In this document: positions 13,474 through 24,417 of the stretch, piece after piece
Numbering within the stretch: position 1 is the stretch's first letter
Layout: each line of letters opens with the position of its first letter
Source: Candidatus Latescibacterota bacterium
GTDB lineage: Bacteria > Latescibacterota > CBDEFO01
DNA length: 64,000 nt
Reading direction: 5' to 3'
NCBI GenBank assembly: GCA_965237525.1
Contig: CBDEFO010000008.1
Coordinates: 1,807,607-1,871,606 of the forward strand
Translations under genes and position numbers: made by a program
Notes under the pieces: model-generated
Seen by the model: the letters and a program-made list of their open reading frames with translations, nothing else
Databases searched by the model: none
Told to the model about the DNA's origin: nothing

Positions 13474-14847
13474 CTATCTATGCCTGACAGTATACTGCAG
13501 TTTCTCCTCTCCTCCCGCCTTCACAGGAACCTTAAACTCCAGGGTCTGAGCGTCCTTCCTCTTAAAATCGTGAGACTTTTTGGGTATCTCCCAAAAACCC
13601 CATATGTGCTCTACCACTACGACCTCTATGTCTTCGTCCTTATGATTCCTTAAGGTTATCCCCACATCTTCGTCATAAATCCTATCTGTGATCTTCCTTC
13701 TATTTGCGACTATCCTCTCGCCTACAACGTCAAACGCATCGCCTAATATCAGCCGAACCTCTTCATCCAGGGGCGTATGATCTATCTTATCCTCCCCGAT
13801 GAACTCCAGCGCCTCGTCCACATCTTTTTTGTAGACCCTCACTTTGCCGCCCGGAAGCGCCATCCCCAGTCCCGCTTTTTCGCTGTTTTTGAATTCTAAC
13901 TTCACCTTAACCTTTTTATCGTCTCTTGTTCCATCGTAGTAATAGACCTTTCTGGATTCCACCTCTGTGTTGGGAAATAGAGAAAGCTGTTTGATCTGAT
14001 TATCTTTGATAGTGGTCTTCCTGTCCAAAGAGTACAGGTGATACTCGAAAAAGGCCCTCTCCTCGAACTGAGGGACAGCGACCTTTGCCATAACCTCGAA
14101 ACGCCTCCTCCTGAACTCAAGCTTCTCCTTGACCCTGTGTACATCCCCCGCCACAAGCTTGACTTGCGCGTCCTTGTAATCCGTCCCGGAGCGATTGTCT
14201 ATCGTCACCCATCCCCCCAACTCGGTCTTCTTCTCATCTTTTCCCACAACGGCCACGTACTCAGCGTGCCATTCGATTCCCGATGTCAGGTAACTTATCT
14301 CCCCTGAATGTTCGCCGGCCTTATCCGACTCCAAGAGCCACACTAAAGTCGGCTTTGTGATCAGTTCTACACCCTCGATCTGCTGCAATTGGATATTCTC
14401 AATCGTCTCTAATTTAACTATCCTGATCTGGTCTACCCCCATCAACACAATATCCCCGTCCTTGAAGCTGATCAGCGTGCCCTCGTGGAGGTTTTCTCCC
14501 TTTGCTAAAATGCTAACGTTTCTGTCCAGGTACTTCTCCAGGATCTTCATAGGACTAGATAGGTCGTATTCATAATTCTGTTCTAATATAGCCACTCCAT
14601 CGGGATCGGTAAGCGATTTAAAATGCACAGATGTGGGGTCTATGCTCGAAGCTACATCTGAAAACTTTACCAGGTTTGCCCCTTTCTCTAACTCTATCTT
14701 CCTTACCTCTTTGACCAACGCCAAGTCCTGATTGTAAACTGTCAGCGCTGTCGTCTCGTTTTGGGACTCTCCGGTTCCGCAGAAAAAGTGTAGCGATAAG
14801 AGTACCGCTGCAACGCGGAGTGGTCGCACCACTATCAAAGCACTCAT
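13474..14847 (-). CDS. Secreted hypothetical protein, DUF4139/DUF4140-like
   Basis: 457-aa ORF with an N-terminal signal peptide (MSALIVVRPLRVAAVLLSLHFFCGTG). TVYNQDLALVKE resembles the DUF4140 N-terminal region. The family assignment comes from memory and was not computed. Confidence 0.4.
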   Translation of the reverse strand: MSALIVVRPLRVAAVLLSLHFFCGTGESQNETTALTVYNQDLALVKEVRKIELEKGANLVKFSDVASSIDPTSVHFKSLTDPDGVAILEQNYEYDLSSPMKILEKYLDRNVSILAKGENLHEGTLISFKDGDIVLMGVDQIRIVKLETIENIQLQQIEGVELITKPTLVWLLESDKAGEHSGEISYLTSGIEWHAEYVAVVGKDEKKTELGGWVTIDNRSGTDYKDAQVKLVAGDVHRVKEKLEFRRRRFEVMAKVAVPQFEERAFFEYHLYSLDRKTTIKDNQIKQLSLFPNTEVESRKVYYYDGTRDDKKVKVKLEFKNSEKAGLGMALPGGKVRVYKKDVDEALEFIGEDKIDHTPLDEEVRLILGDAFDVVGERIVANRRKITDRIYDEDVGITLRNHKDEDIEVVVVEHIWGFWEIPKKSHDFKRKDAQTLEFKVPVKAGGEEKLQYTVRHR

Positions 14848-14936
14848 AGCTGTATGCCCTCTAAAACGATGTTAGTCGAAGTCTTTTATAAACTTAACAT
14901 AACATTCCTGATACACAGTTGTCAAGGGAAATCAAC

Positions 14937-14977
14937 AAAAAAGCCGCAGGCATTCCAGTTATGCCCACGGCTTTTTA
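14937..14977. terminator. Bidirectional Rho-independent terminator hairpin
   Basis: aaaaaGCCGcAGGCATtccagttATGCCcaCGGCttttt has A- and T-runs on both sides. It lies downstream of the minus-strand gene ending at 15227. Confidence 0.55.
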
Positions 14978-15226
14978 TCTTCTGCTATATATACAGCTAT
15001 CTTAACTTACGAGCCATGGACATATTCCTCCCCAGCTATACCAGCGGCTGTAATAAATTCCGTAGAAAGGGAGTGAAAATGTCATCAGGCTCTCCTTTTT
15101 CTCCAATGCCGTCCAAATTTGCTCTTTGACTGTGTGTTGCACTAGATATATAATAATCAATATCTGCCGCTTTGTCAAGGGGAACAGTATGAAGTTATAT
15201 TCACCATAACCACATCTGATAATTTA

Positions 15227-16585
15227 TTATTTATTTTTATATAAAACTATTACCCTTCTGATATTTTCTAAATTTGTCATAGTTCCAATTAAAATAAGAG
15301 TTAAGAGGGGCTGATTTATTAAGGCACCTACAAAAATAATAAATGTTCTAACATCACGACGTATTCTGAATGAAAAATCTTTTGAACCAATTCTTCTATT
15401 CAGCAGTCTATTCCTCAAACTATAATACTTGTCTGCAGTATAACTGTTCATAAAAGATCCCATTATTGCCAAAAAACCAATCGCAATGTACAAGAAATTA
15501 TTATTCAAGAGATAAACATAATAAGTTAAACTAAATAAAAGAAATCCATCAGCATATCTATCCAATACTGCGTCAAACCATCCACCGAATGTCGTAGCTT
15601 GGAATGTTAGTCTTGCTACTTCACCATCACAGCCATCAACGATTGATGAGATTTGCGCAAGAATTCCGCCAATAACTAAATTAACATACCCACCTAAAAA
15701 GAAGAAATATGCACCCAACATAGAGATGATAAAAGGAAAAAAAGAAATAGAATTTGGACTTATGCTAGTTTTTACAAGATACTTTGAAATAATAATTGAT
15801 ATAGGCCTATTTAAATACCTTGAAACAGGACCATCGGAAGTTTTTTTCAGATTAGTAATAAGCTTGTCGGATGCTTTTTTTAAATCGTCCTGCGTATCTA
15901 TATCTGTCCACCAAAGCTCGATGTTTTTTCTCATCTTTGAGGGGTAACTTTCGATCTTGGTAATATCAAATATCTCAGCGTCTCCATTTTTGGCGGCTTT
16001 TTTGATACTGTCCCTAAGTTCTCCTTTTTTCTCATTTGCCGCCTCTTCTATATAAGAAAATATCTTCGGTGAACATAAAAAGATGCCCGTATCTACGCAG
16101 TTTGACTCCCTTATGTTCTTGCCTATATCGACGATCTTCCCATTTCTTTCCAGGACTTTCGTATCCTCTTTGCACGGCTCTTTTCTATCGACTGCTAAAA
16201 CCACAGAACTTTTCATATCACATTTTACAAGTTCATTTAAGATACGATCATCAAAGATATGGTCTGACATCAACAGGACAAAGTTCTCATTCAACGCCTC
16301 TTTGGCCTTTAAAACGGAGGCTCCATTTTCTTCCTTTTGCCATTCTTTATTCTGAATATAATCTATTTTTACTCCGAGTCTCTCTCCGTCTCCTAACTTT
16401 TCTTTTATTTTGTCCCCACGATAACCGACAACTATCAAAAATTCGTGAATATCCGCTTGTTTTGCAGTTAATACTGTTCTTTCAATCAATGATAAACCTA
16501 AGAGTTGGATTAGCGGTTTTGGTTTATCTGTAGTTAGATCGCCTAATCTACCACCGTCCCCAGCGGCTATTATCAACGCTTCCAT
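15227..16585 (-). CDS. Bifunctional nucleotidyltransferase / CDP-alcohol phosphatidyltransferase (IPCT/DIPPS-like); strongly AT-rich
   Basis: The N-terminus (ALIIAAGDGGRLGDLTTDKPKPL) is a sugar- or inositol-phosphate cytidylyltransferase fold. The C-terminal membrane domain carries the CDP-OH phosphotransferase signature DGcDGevARltfqattfGGwfDavlDryaD. Gene GC is far below that of its neighbours. Confidence 0.55.
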   Translation of the reverse strand: MEALIIAAGDGGRLGDLTTDKPKPLIQLLGLSLIERTVLTAKQADIHEFLIVVGYRGDKIKEKLGDGERLGVKIDYIQNKEWQKEENGASVLKAKEALNENFVLLMSDHIFDDRILNELVKCDMKSSVVLAVDRKEPCKEDTKVLERNGKIVDIGKNIRESNCVDTGIFLCSPKIFSYIEEAANEKKGELRDSIKKAAKNGDAEIFDITKIESYPSKMRKNIELWWTDIDTQDDLKKASDKLITNLKKTSDGPVSRYLNRPISIIISKYLVKTSISPNSISFFPFIISMLGAYFFFLGGYVNLVIGGILAQISSIVDGCDGEVARLTFQATTFGGWFDAVLDRYADGFLLFSLTYYVYLLNNNFLYIAIGFLAIMGSFMNSYTADKYYSLRNRLLNRRIGSKDFSFRIRRDVRTFIIFVGALINQPLLTLILIGTMTNLENIRRVIVLYKNK

Positions 16586-17087
16586 ACTTGTCCTCCTTCA
16601 AGCCTTTCAAAATATTCCTCTGATTCTTATAGGAAGATACGAAATGAGGTGTTTGATGTCAATAGAGACTGGGGGGAATAATCCGTTGGCCAATCTTTTT
16701 TTCTCCTCTCAACGACTACTCATTGTCCTCCCTGACTTCCCATGGAACACTCTCGACGGCGGTTCTCTGAACTCTACAGAGGGTATCCTTGCAGAGTATA
16801 GGGCACTACCCAATCCTCTTCAATCTCCAGGCCGAAATCTCCAGGCCGAATCCCGGTCCGTCAGTTGGGACGATATAGCTGTCTAATGGACTCCGGTAAA
16901 ACTCTCTTCCCAATCCCCACATCTGGTCTTCGACCGTCACCTTCACCCAGACATCTCCGAACTTGGACGTCCAGCTTCGTTGGCGTCTCTTGCACGTGGG
17001 ATACCTCGACAGGGGAGTTGGGACCTCGGAGTCTTCCGCTCAGAACGTACACCTCAGCTATCTCATTGGTCCTTCTCATGGAGAGCC

Positions 17088-18008
17088 TTAACGTTCACTG
17101 TCTCTATCTTCTTGATCTTCCTTATTCTCTCCTTGCCTTGTTAATGTCTGGATGAACCTCTCAGCCGGAACAGTAAGGACTTTTCCCCTTTTATGGATGA
17201 TTCCAAGCGGTCGCTTGAACCTCTTATCTTTGAAATCTATCGCCTTGAGCGTACCGTGCTGGATCTCCTTCTCCACCGTTACCGATGGGACAATGGACAC
17301 TCCTGAGTCAGCTTCAACGGCATGCTTTAGCGTCTCCACATTATCGATCTCCATGGTAATCTCAACTTGAACCTTATGGTCTTTCAGGATCTTGTCCACC
17401 ACCCTCCTTGTGGGAGTGTCCTTCTCGAACGCCACGAATCTCTGTCCCTGCAACATCTCCACGTCTAACTTATCAAATCTTGATAGAGCATGGTCGGGAT
17501 TGGATATGACCACTAACTCATCCTCCTTAAAAGGAATTATCTCGATCCCGCCTTTTCTGACCGGATAGACTACTATCCCCAAATCGATCTTGTTATTTAT
17601 CACGTTTTCGTATATCTGATCTGCCCGGTCGTAATCCAGGATCACGTCTACCTGAGGATACCTCCTGAAAAATGTCTTCAGATACGATGAAAGCTCGTGT
17701 ATCCCAACGCTGTATATAGCCTCCATCTTTATTGTCCCTGTAACCACGCCCGATAGCTCTTGAAGCGCAGCTTCCAGCTCATCGTATCTTTGAACTATAT
17801 CCTTACACCCCTTATAGAAAATCTCCCCCGCAGGAGTCAAATTCAGACCGCGTTTTCCTCTCTCCACAAGCTTATGACCGAACGCCTCCTCAGCCTTCTT
17901 TAACTGCTGACTTACAGCCGACTGGGAGATGAAATTGCTGCTTGCGGCCCTGGAAAAGCTTCCGCTCTCGACCAGATCGCAGAAGATCTTCAGACTCTCT
18001 ATAAGCAT
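17088..18008 (-). CDS. LysR-family transcriptional regulator
   Basis: 306-aa ORF with an N-terminal HTH (LKIFCDLVESGSFSRAASSNFISQSAVSQQLKKAEEAFG) and a C-terminal substrate-binding domain. Confidence 0.85.
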   Translation of the reverse strand: MLIESLKIFCDLVESGSFSRAASSNFISQSAVSQQLKKAEEAFGHKLVERGKRGLNLTPAGEIFYKGCKDIVQRYDELEAALQELSGVVTGTIKMEAIYSVGIHELSSYLKTFFRRYPQVDVILDYDRADQIYENVINNKIDLGIVVYPVRKGGIEIIPFKEDELVVISNPDHALSRFDKLDVEMLQGQRFVAFEKDTPTRRVVDKILKDHKVQVEITMEIDNVETLKHAVEADSGVSIVPSVTVEKEIQHGTLKAIDFKDKRFKRPLGIIHKRGKVLTVPAERFIQTLTRQGENKEDQEDRDSER

Positions 18009-18227
18009 CGTTAAGCACCTATTTCTAAGCGTATTTAAAGCGCGCTATAGCTCTACATTTGGGCTAATAGTGTCAGACTCTAAGGGATCGCCTAATATTA
18101 GTTTACTTAATAATAAGTATTAAATCAATTAATTTGACTTATAATACCAATTATGATAACTTTATTTATAAGCAATACAGAGAGCGGACACTTCAAACCT
18201 TAAATAATATAGAAGAGGTGAAAAACT

Positions 18228-18323
18228 GTGAAATCACACATGCTGATAGAGCATATAAGCCTGGTTGCACTTATATCAGCGTTTGCGCTGTATGCCTTCC
18301 ACAGCGTTGCTGTCTTGTTCTAG
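18228..18323 (+). CDS. Small hydrophobic peptide, paralog A (31 codons from GTG: VKSHMLIEHISLVALISAFALYAFHSVAVLF)
   Basis: A GAGGTG ribosome-binding site sits 7 nt upstream of the GTG. A terminator-like hairpin, GCTCCGgcccttgggtCGGAGC followed by ttttccatttt, follows the gene. Two further paralogs lie downstream. Confidence 0.5.
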   Translation: MKSHMLIEHISLVALISAFALYAFHSVAVLF

Positions 18324-18469
18324 TGCATAAGGCTTCAACGCCAATCTTACAGAAGGTGGGAAGCTCCGGCCCTTGGGTCGGAGCTTTTCCATTTTCTCTC
18401 CCACACCTTCCGTAGAGTATCCTCCTGCTGGTTTCAAGTTCAGAACGTTTTTCCTCTCTACACAGCGTA

Positions 18470-18612
18470 ATACCGAACGCCTTCTGTATATTCTTTATCT
18501 GCTGACTGACAGCCGACTGGGAGACGATATTGCTGGTTGGCGCCCTGGAAAAGCTTCCGCTCTCGACCAGATCGCAGAAGATCGTCAGACTCTCTATAAG
18601 CATCATAAGCAT
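18470..18612 (-). pseudogene. Truncated duplicate of the LysR regulator 5' end (HTH fragment)
   Basis: Encodes MLIESLTIFCDLVESGSFSRAPTSNIVSQSAVSQQIKNIQKAFG and then degenerates. The nucleotide sequence is a diverged copy of 17881-18008. A third, more degraded copy lies at about 19370-19480. Confidence 0.7.
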
Positions 18613-18935
18613 CTTTAGGTGCTAATTCCAATATGAAATGTACAGTGCCGCCATATTTTCATAATGAAATGTTTCTATTGCATTGCGCATCTACAAGCGC
18701 GGTATGACTCGATATTCAGGTGATTACCATAAGTAAACTAAAGGGATGTAACTCTATGTTATTAAACTATTTGCTCTGACGAGATATAAGGAATAGAATA
18801 TGACCTTTTACGATTAGAGGCTGCTGTTCAACCGTCGGCACAAATGTTGCTCAACATAGCTATTACACGGTACAAAAAAGACGGTACAAAACACAGACAA
18901 TTCAAACTTTAAATCATTAAGGGAGGTGAAAGACA

Positions 18936-19031
18936 GTGAAATTACTAATGCTGATAGAAGGTATAAGTCTGATTGTGGCAATAGCAGCGTTTGAGATGTA
19001 TGCCTACGACAGCATCTCTGCCCTGTTCTAA
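18936..19031 (+). CDS. Small hydrophobic peptide, paralog B (VKLLMLIEGISLIVAIAAFEMYAYDSISALF)
   Basis: A GGGAGGTG ribosome-binding site sits 6 nt upstream of the GTG. Upstream the motif cagacaattcaaactttaaatcat is conserved. Confidence 0.5.
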   Translation: MKLLMLIEGISLIVAIAAFEMYAYDSISALF

Positions 19032-19121
19032 CCCATCAGGGTTGTAGATTGCTCTAATATTATTGAGCTGCACGAAGCACAGACAATTCAACTTTAAATC
19101 ATAGAAAGGGGGTGAAAAACT

Positions 19122-19217
19122 GTGAAATCACAGATGCTGATAGAGCATACAAGCCTGGTTGCACTTATATCAGCGTTTGAGATGTATGCCTACAACAGCG
19201 TCGCTGCCTTGTTCTAA
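19122..19217 (+). CDS. Small hydrophobic peptide, paralog C (VKSQMLIEHTSLVALISAFEMYAYNSVAALF)
   Basis: A GGGGGTG ribosome-binding site precedes the GTG. It is followed by the same terminator hairpin as paralog A. Confidence 0.5.
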   Translation: MKSQMLIEHTSLVALISAFEMYAYNSVAALF

Positions 19218-19904
19218 TGCATAAGGCTTCAACTCCAATCTTACAGAAGGTGGTAAGCTGCGGCCCTTGGGTCGGAGCTTTTCCATTTTCTCTCCCACAT
19301 CTTCCGTAGCGTATCCTCCTGCTGGTTTCAAGTTCAGACCGTTTTTCCCCTCTCCACAAGCTTATGGCCTAACGCCTTCTGTATATTCTTTCTCTGCTGA
19401 CTGACAGCCGACTTGGAGACAGAATTGCAGCTTGCTGGCGCGAAGCACTTCCGCTCTTGTAGGTTCATGCTTCCGAGGGATGATTGTAGACGCTTCTTGT
19501 TGTAGTCCTCAATCCATTGGGATATGATATGATCTGTTCGAAGGACTCCAAACGGTTAGACCAAACACACTTTTTATTCAGGTTCCAGAAAAAACGTTTC
19601 CCGTTGCCCACTCATACGCCTGCGACTGGCCGATGCCATTTTCCCGATACATCCGCTCTTTCCAAAAGAGTCAACACGACCTGTGCCTTTCTAAATGCTG
19701 TCCAACTCTAACTATCTTTCGCTACAGGGATTGACATCTTTTTGACCTCCTTTCCCCGATAACCTCACTCGGGGACAAGCCTCAAACCCCAATTTGCATA
19801 ATATCTGTGGATTTGTCAAGAGCAACAGTGTGACACATGCTTTGCTTCTATATTATCTTGACATTCAAAACTATCAGTTGTATTTTGGTTATGCGCCACA
19901 GAAT

Positions 19905-20780
19905 ATGCACTACTCTTATGCTTCCGGGGAAAGGTCGCCTTTGAGAACACTTATCGCGCTCATACAACTTACAAGACCCTTAAACTGTCTGATCTGTTTT
20001 TTCTCCGTGATCGTAGGCGCAGCAGCGTCGGGGACTATAGCTTCGCCTCTTAAAGCTATCGTTGCCGCCTTTTCTGCAACTCTTATCGCCGCGGCTGGCA
20101 ATGGCTTTAACGACCTTTCTGACGTGGAAGCCGACAGGATAGATAAACCCCACCGTCCTATACCGTCCGAGGTAGTAACAAAGCGCACCGCTTCTATTCA
20201 ATCTACGCTGCTCTTCATCGGCGGTATGCTCCTGTCGTTCCTTATAAATAAAGGGGCAGTTGTCGTAGTTTTTGCAACAACTCTTCTTCTGATTCAATAT
20301 AGCATTAGATTAAAATCTATTCCGCTGGTGGGTAATTTTACGGTCAGTTGCGTTGCAGCTTTAGCCTTTGTCTACGGGGGACTTTCTACAGGAAGCATAT
20401 ACGCATCCTTTATACCCGCACTATTTGCCATCCTTTTCCACCTTGGACGGGAGATCATCAAAGACGTAGAAGACATCCAGGGGGACATGCACTCCAATTA
20501 TTCCACTTTCCCCGTTATCAAAGGCAAAAAAGCGGCGTTTGCAGCCGCTACCGCCGTCTACACTATGCTTATGCTTCTGACTCTTGTGCCCTACCCGCTT
20601 CGCATCTACGGTTCGGCCTATCTAGTCATCGTGGTTGTGGGGGTGCATCCTGTGCTCATATATGTTATCAGATCTATGTGGAAGGATGATTCCTCCGCCA
20701 ACCTCAAAAGACTCAGCACTATCCTCAAAGCTGATATGGTCGTCGGTCTTGTTGCTGTCCTTGTTGGAGCTAACGTCTGA
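19905..20780 (+). CDS. UbiA-family membrane prenyltransferase
   Basis: It carries the NGFNDLSDVEADRIDKPHRPIPS (NxxxDxxxD) motif and a second Asp-rich motif (GREIIKDVEDIQGD), with multiple TM helices. The annotated ATG at 19794 probably lies upstream of the true start. Confidence 0.75.
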   Translation: MHYSYASGERSPLRTLIALIQLTRPLNCLICFFSVIVGAAASGTIASPLKAIVAAFSATLIAAAGNGFNDLSDVEADRIDKPHRPIPSEVVTKRTASIQSTLLFIGGMLLSFLINKGAVVVVFATTLLLIQYSIRLKSIPLVGNFTVSCVAALAFVYGGLSTGSIYASFIPALFAILFHLGREIIKDVEDIQGDMHSNYSTFPVIKGKKAAFAAATAVYTMLMLLTLVPYPLRIYGSAYLVIVVVGVHPVLIYVIRSMWKDDSSANLKRLSTILKADMVVGLVAVLVGANV

Positions 20781-20782
20781 AG

Positions 20783-21613
20783 TTGGAGAGCCAGTTGGAG
20801 AAGGTCTCTGGATTCTGGATAGGTCTCATACTTGCTGCTTTAGTAGCCACTCTTTCATACAGAGTCCGATTTCTGACTGTCAGTGGCTCAGTCGGAGCGC
20901 TTGTTTTAGGAACTGTTATCTTCGGATTGGGAGGACTGCCATGGGTTTTTGCTCTTCTTGTCTTTTTCTTGGCATCAAGTCTCCTATCCAAACTCGGCGC
21001 AAAGAGGAAAAAGGATTTCAGGGCTGTCTTTGAAAAGGCATCGACTAGGGATCTTGCCCAGGTTCTGGCCAACGGAGGCGTCCCCGGGGCTATAGTGCTA
21101 GCGAACGCTCTTTTGCCATCTCCGATCTGGTGTACAGCATATTTAGGGGCCCTTGGCACTGCCACAGCAGACACGTGGGGGACAGAGATAGGCATCCTCT
21201 CGGTCTCCCGCCCTCGTCTTATAACTGACCTCAAAACAGTTGATCCCGGAACATCGGGAGCCGTTTCTTTTATTGGACTTACAGGGTCCGTTCTCGGTTC
21301 TCTCCTTATCGCCTCTACGGGATTGGCCTTTTACCCCTATTTGAATGTCCTGAACTTGACAGCTATCTGGCTTGCTGGAATTGCAGGGGCCCTCGCAGAC
21401 AGTCTGTTGGGAGCGACTCTACAGCGGGAATATACATGCCCCAAATGTCTCCAACAGACAGAGCGCCCTTTTCACTGTGAAGAAACGTCCTGTCGTTTAA
21501 CTTCTGGGATAAGCTGGCTTGGAAATGATGCTGTCAATGCCCTATCGTCCCTCTATGGAGCCATCTTTGCCTTGATAGTAGATAGGCTATTAGACCTGTT
21601 TATTTGCCTCTAA
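20783..21613 (+). CDS. DUF92/TMEM19-like integral membrane protein with an inserted CxxC...C..C zinc-ribbon-like segment
   Basis: 276-aa polytopic protein whose glycine-rich TM pattern is typical of DUF92. It contains YTCPKCLQQTERPFHCEETSC. It starts 3 nt after the UbiA stop. Confidence 0.45.
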   Translation: MESQLEKVSGFWIGLILAALVATLSYRVRFLTVSGSVGALVLGTVIFGLGGLPWVFALLVFFLASSLLSKLGAKRKKDFRAVFEKASTRDLAQVLANGGVPGAIVLANALLPSPIWCTAYLGALGTATADTWGTEIGILSVSRPRLITDLKTVDPGTSGAVSFIGLTGSVLGSLLIASTGLAFYPYLNVLNLTAIWLAGIAGALADSLLGATLQREYTCPKCLQQTERPFHCEETSCRLTSGISWLGNDAVNALSSLYGAIFALIVDRLLDLFICL

Positions 21614-22943: not shown

Positions 22944-23819
22944 ATGAACAAGTACGTTCTCTACAACGTTGACGCCTTCGAGTGGTTGTCCGAACAGCCG
23001 GTAGATTCCATACATGCTGTAGTCACTGATCCTCCTTACGGGCTTGTTGAGTACCGCGACCAAGAGTTGGAGAAAATGAAGCGTGGGCGGGGCGGCGTGT
23101 GGCGTATACCTCCTGCGTTTGATGGCGCGAAGCGAAGGCCATTACCCCGTTTCACCGTCCTGAGCGATAGGGATAAGGATAACCTCAACGGGTTTTTCTA
23201 CCGCTTTGCCAAGCTCTTGCTGCCTATCTTGGTTCCTGGGGCTCACGTCTTTGTAGCGACGAACCCGCTTGTGTCCCACCTGGTCTATACACCGTTTGTT
23301 GAGAGGGGATTTGAGCCACGCGGCGAGGTAATCCGACTTGTTCAACGATTGAGGGGTGGCGACCGTCCAAAAAACGCACACAAGGAGTTCCCGGACGTGA
23401 CGGTGCTGCCGAAATCGTGTTGGGAGCCGTGGGGTCTCTTCCGTAAGCCGTGTGAGGGTCGCGTGCAGGACAATCTCCGCAAGTGGAGGACGGGGGGGCT
23501 GAGACGCATTTCGGATAAGGAACCATTCAAAGACTTGATACGGTCGTCCCCCACTAGACGGGATGAGTTCGGCTTGGCTTCTCACCCGTCGCTCAAGCCG
23601 CAACATTTCTTGCGCAAGATCGTAAGGGCGGCGCTCCCGTTCGGAGAGGGGGTCATTCTTGACCCCTTCATGGGATCGGGATCAACCATAGCTGCCGCAG
23701 AGACGCTCGGTCTACGCAGCATTGGCCTTGAGATCAGACGCGAATACTTCCAGATGGCTCTTGAGGCTATACCTAAGCTCGCAGCTTTCAAGGTGCAGGA
23801 TCGGGAGAGCAATGGCTAG
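22944..23819 (+). CDS. DNA methyltransferase, beta-class (N6-adenine or N4-cytosine), type II restriction-modification
   Basis: Motif IV TDPPYG lies near the N-terminus and motif I DPFMGSGST near the C-terminus. The gene is GC-rich relative to its flanks. Confidence 0.75.
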   Translation: MNKYVLYNVDAFEWLSEQPVDSIHAVVTDPPYGLVEYRDQELEKMKRGRGGVWRIPPAFDGAKRRPLPRFTVLSDRDKDNLNGFFYRFAKLLLPILVPGAHVFVATNPLVSHLVYTPFVERGFEPRGEVIRLVQRLRGGDRPKNAHKEFPDVTVLPKSCWEPWGLFRKPCEGRVQDNLRKWRTGGLRRISDKEPFKDLIRSSPTRRDEFGLASHPSLKPQHFLRKIVRAALPFGEGVILDPFMGSGSTIAAAETLGLRSIGLEIRREYFQMALEAIPKLAAFKVQDRESNG

Positions 23820-24417
23820 GCTTCAGGACTTCGATTCTGCCGTTCCGCTGCCGCCCGGTCTTGCAGTACGCGCCATCCGCTCGTCCATCGAGTATATCGA
23901 GCGGGATTTGGATGATCTCCTTGATGTCTACTTTGAGCAAATGAACGTTTTTAGTGCCCTCGTGGGGATGTATGGCACCCGCGCCCTTGACCAGCACAGT
24001 GTCTACGAGAAGGTAAGACACACCGATATTGCTCAGACGCGCTTTCCCGACCTGAGGCGACGGGGAAGCGGTCAGCACCCACCCCCGAATGAGTGCCTCG
24101 AATCCAAAGCGAGCAAGAGGGTATGGGCGCTCCAATCGCATTACGACCATGAAGGATGGTATATCGTCTGGCGTTACATGGTTGATACGACCGCTTCGAT
24201 TGAGCCTGACAAGCATGTTCTTATCTGGCGTGTGGATGTGGTGTACTTGCAGAGCAACGACTGGAAGTACGAGGGGAGCAAGGCCGGTGCCGAAGGAGGT
24301 GGCCGGACTCATACGTTCGGCTTGTGGAAACCGGCCACGAAGCTAAGGGGATGTAGTGTTTACAGGCGGTCGGATATCGCCATCTCAGGAGGTAAGCCGG
24401 TTCCGATCAATGGGTGA
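23812..24417 (+). CDS. Putative restriction endonuclease partner (PD-ExK candidate)
   Basis: The ATG at 23812 overlaps the methyltransferase stop by 8 nt. FPDL ... ECLESK gives a PD-x(n)-E-x-K arrangement. The same GC-rich island. No recognisable family otherwise. Confidence 0.4.
   Translation: MARLQDFDSAVPLPPGLAVRAIRSSIEYIERDLDDLLDVYFEQMNVFSALVGMYGTRALDQHSVYEKVRHTDIAQTRFPDLRRRGSGQHPPPNECLESKASKRVWALQSHYDHEGWYIVWRYMVDTTASIEPDKHVLIWRVDVVYLQSNDWKYEGSKAGAEGGGRTHTFGLWKPATKLRGCSVYRRSDIAISGGKPVPING

What the first reader, a model, noticed from the sequence alone, without database searches (positions are those of the whole stretch)
18009..19480. Three tandem paralogous 31-codon hydrophobic-peptide genes interleaved with duplicated LysR 5' fragments
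Three small plus-strand ORFs encode VKSHMLIEHISLVALISAFALYAFHSVAVLF, VKLLMLIEGISLIVAIAAFEMYAYDSISALF and VKSQMLIEHTSLVALISAFEMYAYNSVAALF. 
- Each has a strong GGAGGTG-type ribosome-binding site 6-7 nt before a GTG start.
- Upstream of each is the conserved motif cagacaattcaaactttaaatcat.
- Copies A and C end with an identical Rho-independent terminator (GCTCCGgcccttgggtCGGAGCttttccatttt).
- Between the copies lie two progressively degraded duplicates of the 5' end of the adjacent LysR regulator gene.
The ancestral state was therefore probably a LysR gene divergently transcribed from one peptide gene, and the LysR-5'-plus-peptide module was then amplified in tandem. 

The whole block is lower in GC than the trp genes. 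A UbiA prenyltransferase and a DUF92 gene follow in the same orientation. 

The peptides look like single-TM micro-proteins. Candidates are a type I toxin-like family (which are often multicopy), a small accessory subunit, or a regulated signalling or pore peptide. The minus-strand ORFs 18271..18612 and 19165..19359 are mostly antisense artefacts of these genes.
Basis: seen in the sequence. Interest (0 to 1): 0.8.

Follow-up and report, generated by a model that had tools for sequence, protein, structure and literature searches.

The report
Orphan 31-codon membrane-peptide genes beside LysR
Three copies of a tiny gene for a 31-residue membrane helix sit next to a LysR regulator in an uncultured Latescibacterota bacterium; they come from an old, still-rearranging tandem duplication, have no relatives outside this one lineage, are probably translated, and have no demonstrated function.

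Summary
Three GTG-started 31-codon ORFs (18228-18323, 18936-19031, 19122-19217) each have a strong Shine-Dalgarno site 7 nt upstream. A and C end in a long intrinsic terminator. Two decayed lysR 5' fragments lie between and after the copies.

The array is a tandem duplication with a period of about 595 nt, running from lysR codon ~62 to the terminator. It is in flux. One relative (94-96% nt) has a single copy, produced by A/C recombination. Another (99.5%) has an extra broken copy next to a transposase remnant.

No homolog turned up in any library or collection searched; the 31-aa query was too short for the 5.8-billion-cluster homolog search.

Three other signals do point to a functional, translated unit:
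- SD+ORF+3'UTR+terminator is 1.3% diverged between genomes, against 12.6% for the adjoining spacer.
- Hydrophobicity is retained or gained beyond a spectrum-matched null.
- Invariant residues fall on one helical face (P=0.005).

Type I toxin, sRNA and relic readings remain open. This is an ordinary-to-moderately interesting orphan microprotein family, not a new kind of system.

The parts
17088..18008 (-). Full-length LysR-type regulator gene (306 aa).
   Evidence: HTH_1 and LysR_substrate domains. Below the cutoff of every specific NCBIfam model. Closest relatives are 92% identical, then there is a drop to ~54%.
18009..18227 (.). Divergent spacer between lysR and peptide A. It contains a 38-nt block that is identical in L001 (18119-18156, with TTGACT/TATAAT and an ATTAA-N5-TTAAT dyad) and the conserved proximal block 18188-18227.
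   Evidence: Overall divergence from L001 is 12.6% plus a 10-nt indel.
18204..18232 (-). Sigma-70-like promoter on the minus strand (TTCACA-17-TATTAT, 10 of 12 matches). Its -35 overlaps the GTG of peptide A and its spacer covers the SD. It is a candidate lysR promoter or antisense promoter.
   Evidence: The homologous site at copy C is 19098-19126 (TTCACA-17-TATGAT).
18228..18323 (+). Peptide gene A (VKSHMLIEHISLVALISAFALYAFHSVAVLF).
   Evidence: SD AGAGGTG lies 7 nt upstream. The ortholog in L001 differs by 2 nt.
18358..18399 (+). Intrinsic terminator of unit A (14-pair stem plus T tract).
   Evidence: One loop substitution relative to L001.
18424..18612 (-). lysR 5' fragment 1. It is a pseudogene: the start and ~45 codons are intact, followed by three 1-nt deletions. 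It lies within the spurious 113-aa ORF 18271-18612.
18613..18935 (.). Second spacer, a strongly diverged and expanded copy of 18009-18227. Only the lysR-proximal block and the 45 nt next to the ORF are recognisably conserved.
18936..19031 (+). Peptide gene B (VKLLMLIEGISLIVAIAAFEMYAYDSISALF). It has no terminator of its own.
19122..19217 (+). Peptide gene C (VKSQMLIEHTSLVALISAFEMYAYNSVAALF).
   Evidence: 91% nt identity to unit A over 269 nt.
19252..19293 (+). Intrinsic terminator of unit C, with one stem mismatch relative to A.
19318..19468 (-). lysR 5' fragment 2. It lacks the N-terminus, shares two deletions with fragment 1, and is cut off by the IS remnant.
19465..19700 (-). Degenerate IS3-family transposase (OrfB C-terminus) remnant that bounds the array.
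   Evidence: Translation gives ...DHIISQWIEDYNKKRLQSSLG... with broken frames upstream. The family was assigned from the motif by my own knowledge, not by a profile search.

Best explanation
Each unit is a short, self-contained transcription unit: SD, GTG, 31 codons and, in A and C, an intrinsic terminator. It encodes a leaderless single-helix membrane microprotein.

Shown:
- The anatomy of the unit.
- The ancestral arrangement was lysR divergently transcribed from one such gene.
- A segment of about 595 nt, from lysR codon ~62 to just past the terminator, duplicated in tandem before the sampled genomes split.
- One unit then gained an extra local ORF copy (B/C).
- The array has since been trimmed or extended by homologous recombination, gene conversion and IS activity.

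Inferred:
- The LysR protein binds the shared spacer and controls the peptide promoter, as LysR-type regulators usually do for the divergent gene.
- The peptide inserts with its Lys2 end in the cytoplasm.
- It acts through its one conserved helical face (M5, E8, L12, I16, F19, Y22/A23, S26, L30), by packing against itself or against a larger membrane protein.
- The opposite face is free to vary.
- Copy A is the maintained copy. B and C are dispensable paralogs.
For: - Anatomy. Strong SD at fixed 7-nt spacing, GTG start, identical 31-codon length and a plus-strand-only terminator in diverged paralogs.
- Constraint between genomes. SD+ORF+3'UTR+terminator (18209-18431) has 3 mismatches in 223 nt against L001. 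The adjoining spacer has 24 in 190 plus a 10-nt indel (Fisher P=3e-6). The local background is 4.6%.
- Protein-level signal 1. With the observed mutation spectrum re-dealt over the ORF, lineage B keeps the frame open and gains as much hydrophobicity in only 0.25% of simulations. For lineage A the figure is 7%.
- Protein-level signal 2. The 16 invariant residues cluster on one face at exactly 100 degrees per residue (R=0.40, permutation P=0.005).
- AlphaFold2 gives one helix, residues 2-30, pLDDT 92.6.
- History. Repeat period, deletions shared by the lysR fragments, a single-copy relative whose crossover lies between 18416 and 18445, and an extra partial copy in L008.
Against: - dN/dS among paralogs is 0.56-2.1. 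Differences are spread evenly over codon positions, and the peptide frame is no better than the other five frames.
- Keeping the ORF open and a BLOSUM score at least as high as observed has a joint P of only 0.06-0.08.
- A 6-nt SD plus start plus ORF of at least 25 codons occurs 29 times in the window, mostly spuriously.
- The two positive protein-level tests were chosen after the fact, among about five tried.
- Only three genomes of one species-level lineage carry the family, so there is almost no independent evolutionary sampling.
- The promoter-like block of spacer A is not conserved upstream of B.
- There are no expression data.
- LysR control is inferred from position only. LysR relatives at ~53% identity have other neighbours and no such ORF.
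Confidence: 0.5

Rival explanations
1. Type I toxin-antitoxin-like modules. The peptide is a membrane-damaging toxin. Its mRNA is kept silent by structure and by an antisense RNA made from the minus-strand promoter that overlaps the start codon. That RNA would be the lysR or lysR' leader, which would explain why each unit kept a lysR 5' fragment.
For: - A short hydrophobic single-helix peptide present in several copies. [quoted passage not shown]
- Promoter-like sites matching 10 of 12 positions on the minus strand, over the start codons of A and C.
- The MFE folds pair the SD with CGCCAAUCUU or CUCCAAUCUU just 5' of the terminator. Fold z-scores are -6.1 and -5.3.
- Fast, mostly non-synonymous divergence between paralogs.
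Against: - SD occlusion is not stronger than in tail-shuffled controls (10% and 44% of shuffles do as well), and there is no covariation.
- No terminator was found for a short antisense RNA in 17800-20000.
- The peptides are net neutral to acidic and lack the charged tail common in known toxins (own knowledge).
- No match to PADLOC, Pfam or NCBIfam models.
- B and C were lost in L001 and a copy is broken in L008, with no sign of addiction.
Confidence: 0.15
2. A non-coding small RNA divergently transcribed from, and controlled by, the LysR gene, in the manner of oxyR-oxyS or gcvA-gcvB. The 31-codon ORF would be incidental, or the RNA would be dual-function.
For: - A short unit ending in a strong intrinsic terminator, divergent from an LTTR gene.
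- The untranslated 3' part is as conserved as the ORF between genomes: 1 change in ~108 nt.
- There is no coding signature in dN/dS.
- The fold is stable.
Against: - No Rfam match.
- No compensatory pairs, and several substitutions in C break pairs of the A structure.
- SD, start codon and ORF length are kept in all paralogs.
- Substitutions follow an alpha-helical period and preserve hydrophobicity, which an RNA-only function does not predict.
- B keeps the ORF but not the 3' UTR or terminator.
Confidence: 0.15
3. Non-functional relic. The ORF is a chance reading frame inside a duplicated promoter and leader region that is decaying along with the lysR fragments and IS remnants.
For: - Substitution pattern among paralogs looks neutral.
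- The locus is full of pseudogenes and transposase remnants.
- Copy number is unstable.
- No homolog was found anywhere.
- The chance rate of SD plus ORF in the window is high.
Against: - Unit A is about ten times more conserved between genomes than the adjoining spacer.
- An intact, strong, plus-strand-only terminator follows the ORF in A, C and L001.
- Hydrophobicity and helical-face signals are present.
Confidence: 0.15
4. A leader peptide of a transcription attenuator, or a RiPP precursor tied to the downstream UbiA prenyltransferase.
For: The ORF is followed about 35 nt later by a terminator. A prenyltransferase gene lies downstream in the same orientation.
Against: - What follows each terminator is an antisense lysR pseudogene, not a structural gene.
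- There is no run of regulatory codons in the ORF.
- UbiA is separated by an IS remnant, has its own promoter-like site, and resembles membrane lipid prenyltransferases.
- No maturase or exporter gene was seen among the five flanking ORFs (13474-21613) that were profiled; the rest of the window was listed by coordinates only and not annotated.
Confidence: 0.03

Closest known systems
Small single-pass bacterial membrane proteins (for example KdpF, AcrZ, MgrB, MgtS); named from own knowledge
   Same: Length class, a single hydrophobic helix, no signal peptide, and one helical face conserved as expected for helix-helix packing.
   Different: No sequence or profile similarity to any of them. Not encoded in an operon with a partner protein. 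Present in several tandem copies. Restricted to one lineage.
Type I toxin families in tandem arrays (Ldr/Rdl, Ibs/Sib, Zor/Orz) and divergent pairs (TisB/IstR-1); PMC4147584
   Same: A peptide of about 30 aa that is hydrophobic and multicopy in tandem. Predicted structured mRNA. A promoter-like element on the opposite strand at the 5' end.
   Different: No demonstrated antisense RNA. SD sequestration is not above the control. The peptide is acidic or neutral. No homology. Copies have been lost without an obvious consequence. The divergent partner is a LysR gene or pseudogene rather than an sRNA gene.
LysR regulator with a divergently transcribed small gene: oxyR-oxyS, gcvA-gcvB (sRNAs), aaeR-aaeX (small membrane protein), leuO-leuL (leader peptide); own knowledge
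   Same: A small terminator-ended gene placed head-to-head with an LTTR gene, sharing a spacer of about 220 nt.
   Different: Here the small gene has a strong SD and a conserved ORF, unlike OxyS and GcvB. No downstream operon follows, unlike aaeXAB and leuLABCD. The regulator's 5' end was co-amplified with the small gene.

Membership tests
Type I toxin-antitoxin system | Toxin is a small (<60 aa) hydrophobic membrane peptide. | tested here: met
   31 aa. Single helix, residues 2-30, pLDDT 92.6. Mean Kyte-Doolittle hydropathy 0.8-1.5.
Type I toxin-antitoxin system | A cis- or divergently encoded antisense RNA complementary to the toxin mRNA. | tested here: inconclusive
   Minus-strand promoter-like sites (10 of 12 matches) overlap the start codons of A and C, but no matching terminator was found, and at copy A the transcript would simply be the lysR leader.
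Type I toxin-antitoxin system | Toxin SD sequestered by mRNA structure. | tested here: inconclusive
   The SD is paired in the MFE and in the ensemble (P unpaired 0.08-0.19). However, 10% (A) and 44% (C) of tail-shuffled controls do as well, and there is no covariation.
Type I toxin-antitoxin system | Toxicity on over-expression that is relieved by the antitoxin RNA. | not testable with these tools
   This needs an experiment.
Type I toxin-antitoxin system | Sequence or profile similarity to a described toxin family. | tested here: not met
   No hit in Pfam, NCBIfam, PADLOC or PHROGs at permissive E-value limits (up to 1 for Pfam/NCBIfam, up to 10 for PADLOC/PHROGs). The profile search of 1.84 billion proteins gave only two spurious repeat proteins.
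LysR-divergent regulatory sRNA (OxyS/GcvB type) | A short gene head-to-head with an LTTR gene, ending in an intrinsic terminator. | tested here: met
LysR-divergent regulatory sRNA (OxyS/GcvB type) | A conserved RNA structure, or membership of a described RNA family. | tested here: not met
   Rfam gave only two sub-threshold microRNA matches. None of the 65 predicted pairs shows a compensatory change.
Transcription-attenuation leader peptide | Leader ORF plus terminator placed upstream of co-oriented structural genes, with regulatory codon runs. | tested here: not met
   Each terminator is followed by an antisense lysR pseudogene. There are no codon runs in the ORF.
KdpF and other catalogued small membrane subunits | A match to the family profile. 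| tested here: not met
   No Pfam or NCBIfam hit at E-values up to 1.
LysR-type transcriptional regulator (for gene 17088-18008) | An N-terminal HTH_1 domain plus a LysR_substrate domain. | tested here: met
   PF00126 at 4.4e-20 and PF03466 at 6.9e-43. No specific NCBIfam subfamily cutoff is reached.

The most novel reading that the evidence does not exclude
The lysR 5' fragments are not passive debris. Each peptide gene may be kept silent by the 5' leader of the divergent lysR or lysR' transcript. That transcript would start at the minus-strand promoter that overlaps the peptide start codon, so it would be antisense to the peptide mRNA's 5' UTR. This would be a new type I-like toxin-antitoxin family, restricted to this lineage, in which a regulator's mRNA leader doubles as the antitoxin. 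It would also explain why the leader was co-amplified with every toxin copy.
Probability: 0.06. Interest if true: 0.65.

Novelty: new member of a known kind. Interest (0 to 1): 0.3.

Why it matters
If the peptide is real, this is a new, lineage-restricted membrane microprotein family in a phylum with no cultured model. It has a clear candidate regulator (LysR). It also comes with a natural copy-number series: 1 copy, 3 copies, and 3 copies plus a broken one. That series could be used to ask what the peptide does.

The case is also a methodological caution. For very short hydrophobic ORFs, Ka/Ks can look neutral while hydrophobicity retention and helical periodicity of conservation still carry a coding signal. 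The case does not open a long-standing question, and the family is too narrowly distributed to be of general importance.

Tried and rejected
- The homolog search of the 5.8-billion-cluster collection refuses queries under 40 aa. The exact peptide sequences are not among the 15 billion proteins.
- The profile search of 1.84 billion representatives returned two repeat-rich false positives.
- Pattern plus tblastn scans: GTDB genomes gave one locus, L001. JGI metagenomes and IMG/VR gave none. The plasmid and phage collections gave none.
- A search with the antisense 64-aa ORF, meant to catch mis-called genes in other genomes, found nothing.
- Loci of LysR relatives at ~53% identity (L003-L007) carry no related ORF. 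The peptide does not resemble the N-terminus of their divergent MFS gene, so 'truncated transporter stub' was rejected.
- Rfam gave nothing. RNAalifold showed no covariation.
- SD occlusion is not above the shuffled controls.
- A functional HTH-only mini-LysR encoded by fragment 1 was rejected because of three 1-nt deletions after codon ~46.
- Leader-peptide/attenuator and RiPP/UbiA readings were rejected on anatomy.
- Relatives of the flanking IPCT/DIPPS gene gave no genomes of intermediate distance (nearest 72%, on a 4-kb contig), so the insertion history could not be traced.
Full report
OBSERVATION.

Three plus-strand, GTG-initiated, 31-codon ORFs lie at 18228-18323 (A), 18936-19031 (B) and 19122-19217 (C). 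Peptides A and B are 77% and 65% identical to C, and 16 of 31 columns are invariant.

Each ORF has a purine-rich Shine-Dalgarno site 7 nt before the GTG: AGAGGTG, GGAGGTG and GGGGGTG. Many genes in the window have an SD-like motif upstream of the start, and these three are among the strongest.

A and C are followed about 35 nt after the stop by a long GC-rich hairpin and a T tract. The two hairpins differ by one stem base. B has no terminator and is followed 90 nt later by C.

The full lysR gene is 17088-18008 on the minus strand (HTH_1 plus LysR_substrate). Its 5' end recurs at 18424-18604 and at 19318-19468. The upstream motif matches twice within 3 mismatches, against 0 in 100 shuffles.

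ARCHITECTURE AND HISTORY.

The lysR-derived repeats are spaced 595-597 nt apart (D3-D5). The duplicated unit therefore ran from about lysR codon 62 (17827), through the spacer and the peptide ORF, to just past the terminator (~18421).
- Unit 1 (18422-19315) is 894 nt long. Its spacer has expanded and diverged, and it carries a local duplication of about 186 nt that yields B and C.
- Unit 2 is cut at 19468 by a degenerate IS3-type transposase C-terminus.

Fragment 1 keeps the start and about 45 codons, then has three separate 1-nt deletions. Fragment 2 and the L001 fragment share two of those deletions, so the fragments are pseudogenes with a common origin.

Only two other genomes carry the family:
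- L001 is a Candidatus Latescibacterota chromosome, 94-96% identical in nucleotides. It has one copy. Its sequence is A-like through 18416 and C-like from 18445. It also keeps the same lysR'/IS junction. It is therefore a deletion derivative produced by A/C recombination. Its lysR fragment carries bases specific to its own lysR, which indicates gene conversion.
- L008 is 99.5% identical. It has A, B and C with identical peptides. It also has an extra 370-nt copy of the second spacer with a frameshifted 5' stub of B, next to ~930 nt of an IS1380-like transposase remnant.

Because B and its spacer are far more diverged than the genomes are from each other, the array predates the split of these genomes. 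B and C are dispensable.

IS IT A GENE?

Searches. The peptides hit nothing in Pfam, NCBIfam, PADLOC or PHROGs. A profile search of 1.84 billion proteins gave only two false positives. JGI metagenomes, IMG/VR, plasmids and phages gave nothing.

The Ka/Ks test. NG86 dN/dS is 2.1 (A-C, 7 non-synonymous to 1 synonymous), 0.72 (A-B) and 0.56 (B-C). Differences fall 9/8/6 over the three codon positions. The peptide frame scores no better than the other five frames. Keeping the frame open together with the observed BLOSUM score has a joint P of only 0.06-0.08 for B. A 6-nt SD plus start plus ORF of at least 25 codons occurs 29 times in the window.

Evidence for function. Three results point the other way.
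1. Between the window and L001, the stretch 18209-18431 (SD, ORF, 3' UTR, terminator) has 3 mismatches in 223 nt. The adjoining spacer has 24 in 190 plus a 10-nt indel, and the local background is 4.6% (Fisher P=3e-6, Poisson P=0.009).
2. The observed substitutions of each lineage were re-dealt over sites with the same starting base. Lineage B then keeps the frame open and gains as much hydrophobicity in only 0.25% of trials, and lineage A in 7%.
3. The invariant residues lie on one face of an alpha-helix. The resultant is 0.40, peaking at exactly 100 degrees per residue (permutation P=0.005). AlphaFold2 predicts a single helix, residues 2-30, pLDDT 92.6.

Results 2 and 3 are specific to a translated helix, but they were chosen post hoc among about five tests. 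I put the probability that the ORF is translated at roughly 0.65. That figure sums the best explanation (0.5) and the type I toxin reading (0.15).

RNA-LEVEL AND ANTISENSE FEATURES.

Units A and C fold stably (z = -6.1 and -5.3). The SD pairs with CGCCAAUCUU or CUCCAAUCUU just upstream of the terminator. This occlusion is not beyond tail-shuffled controls (10% and 44% do as well), and no pair covaries. Rfam gave nothing.

At copy A this is most simply a lysR promoter. It could also give an RNA antisense to the peptide 5' UTR. No plus-strand promoter passed the scan between 18009 and 18227. A 38-nt block (18119-18156, containing TTGACT/TATAAT and an ATTAA-N5-TTAAT dyad) is identical in L001 inside an otherwise 12.6% diverged spacer, but it is not conserved upstream of B.

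MECHANISM.

Best-supported reading (confidence 0.5): a LysR-coupled small transcription unit encoding a leaderless single-pass membrane microprotein. The peptide works through one conserved helical face, and the gene was amplified by tandem duplication and is now partly decaying.

What is shown: the anatomy, the duplication history, the conservation of unit A, and the helical and hydrophobic substitution pattern.

What is inferred: LysR control, membrane insertion and partner binding.

Rivals:
- Type I toxin-antitoxin-like (0.15).
- sRNA of the OxyS/GcvB type with an incidental ORF (0.15).
- Non-functional relic (0.15).
- Attenuator leader or RiPP precursor (0.03).

COMPARISON AND VERDICT.

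The unit works like known small bacterial membrane proteins or type I toxins, and it is placed like the small genes divergent from oxyR, gcvA, aaeR or leuO (own knowledge; type I features from PMC4147584). It is a member of none of those families by any test available here. It is a new orphan member of a known kind, confined to one species-level lineage of Latescibacterota. UbiA and DUF92 are neighbours by accident of an IS-bounded rearrangement. Interest is modest (0.3).

Noticed in passing
window 15227-16585 (-), with 19905-20780 (+) and 20783-21613 (+): A bifunctional IPCT/DIPPS-like gene has very low GC (0.29-0.39, against ~0.5 nearby). Its nearest non-self relatives are only 72% and then ~62% identical, and include a Methanobacteriales archaeon. 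It lies near a DGGGPS-like UbiA gene and a DUF92 gene. These are archaeal-type lipid or inositol-phosphate genes in a Latescibacterota genome, so horizontal acquisition is possible.
   Followed up: partly
window 19465-19700 (-): A degenerate IS3-family transposase C-terminus (...QWIEDYNKKRLQSSLG...) with broken frames cuts off lysR fragment 2. The same junction is present in L001.
   Followed up: partly
L008 4112-5415 (reverse of window orientation): An extra 370-nt duplicate of the second spacer carries a frameshifted stub of peptide B. It adjoins ~930 nt of an IS1380-like transposase pseudogene. This is absent from the window.
   Followed up: yes
L001 6190-6340: The lysR pseudogene fragment in L001 carries substitutions specific to L001's own lysR gene. 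This indicates gene conversion between the gene and its fragment.
   Followed up: partly
window 16586-17087: The stretch between the IPCT gene and the lysR stop is 8-13% diverged with indels relative to L001, much more than the flanking genes. L008's annotation places a 161-aa ORF with no Pfam hit there, overlapping the lysR 3' end.
   Followed up: no
window 22944-24417 (+): ORF 22944-23819 has a DPPY DNA-methyltransferase motif and GC of 0.55-0.58, higher than its surroundings. It is followed by an overlapping 231-aa ORF. This may be a restriction-modification island.
   Followed up: no
L003-L007, downstream of the LysR relatives: LysR relatives at ~53% identity, in two distinct neighbourhoods (one with a divergent MFS gene, one with a GH42 gene), are each followed in the same orientation by a 1250-1313 aa protein with no Pfam hit.
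   Followed up: no
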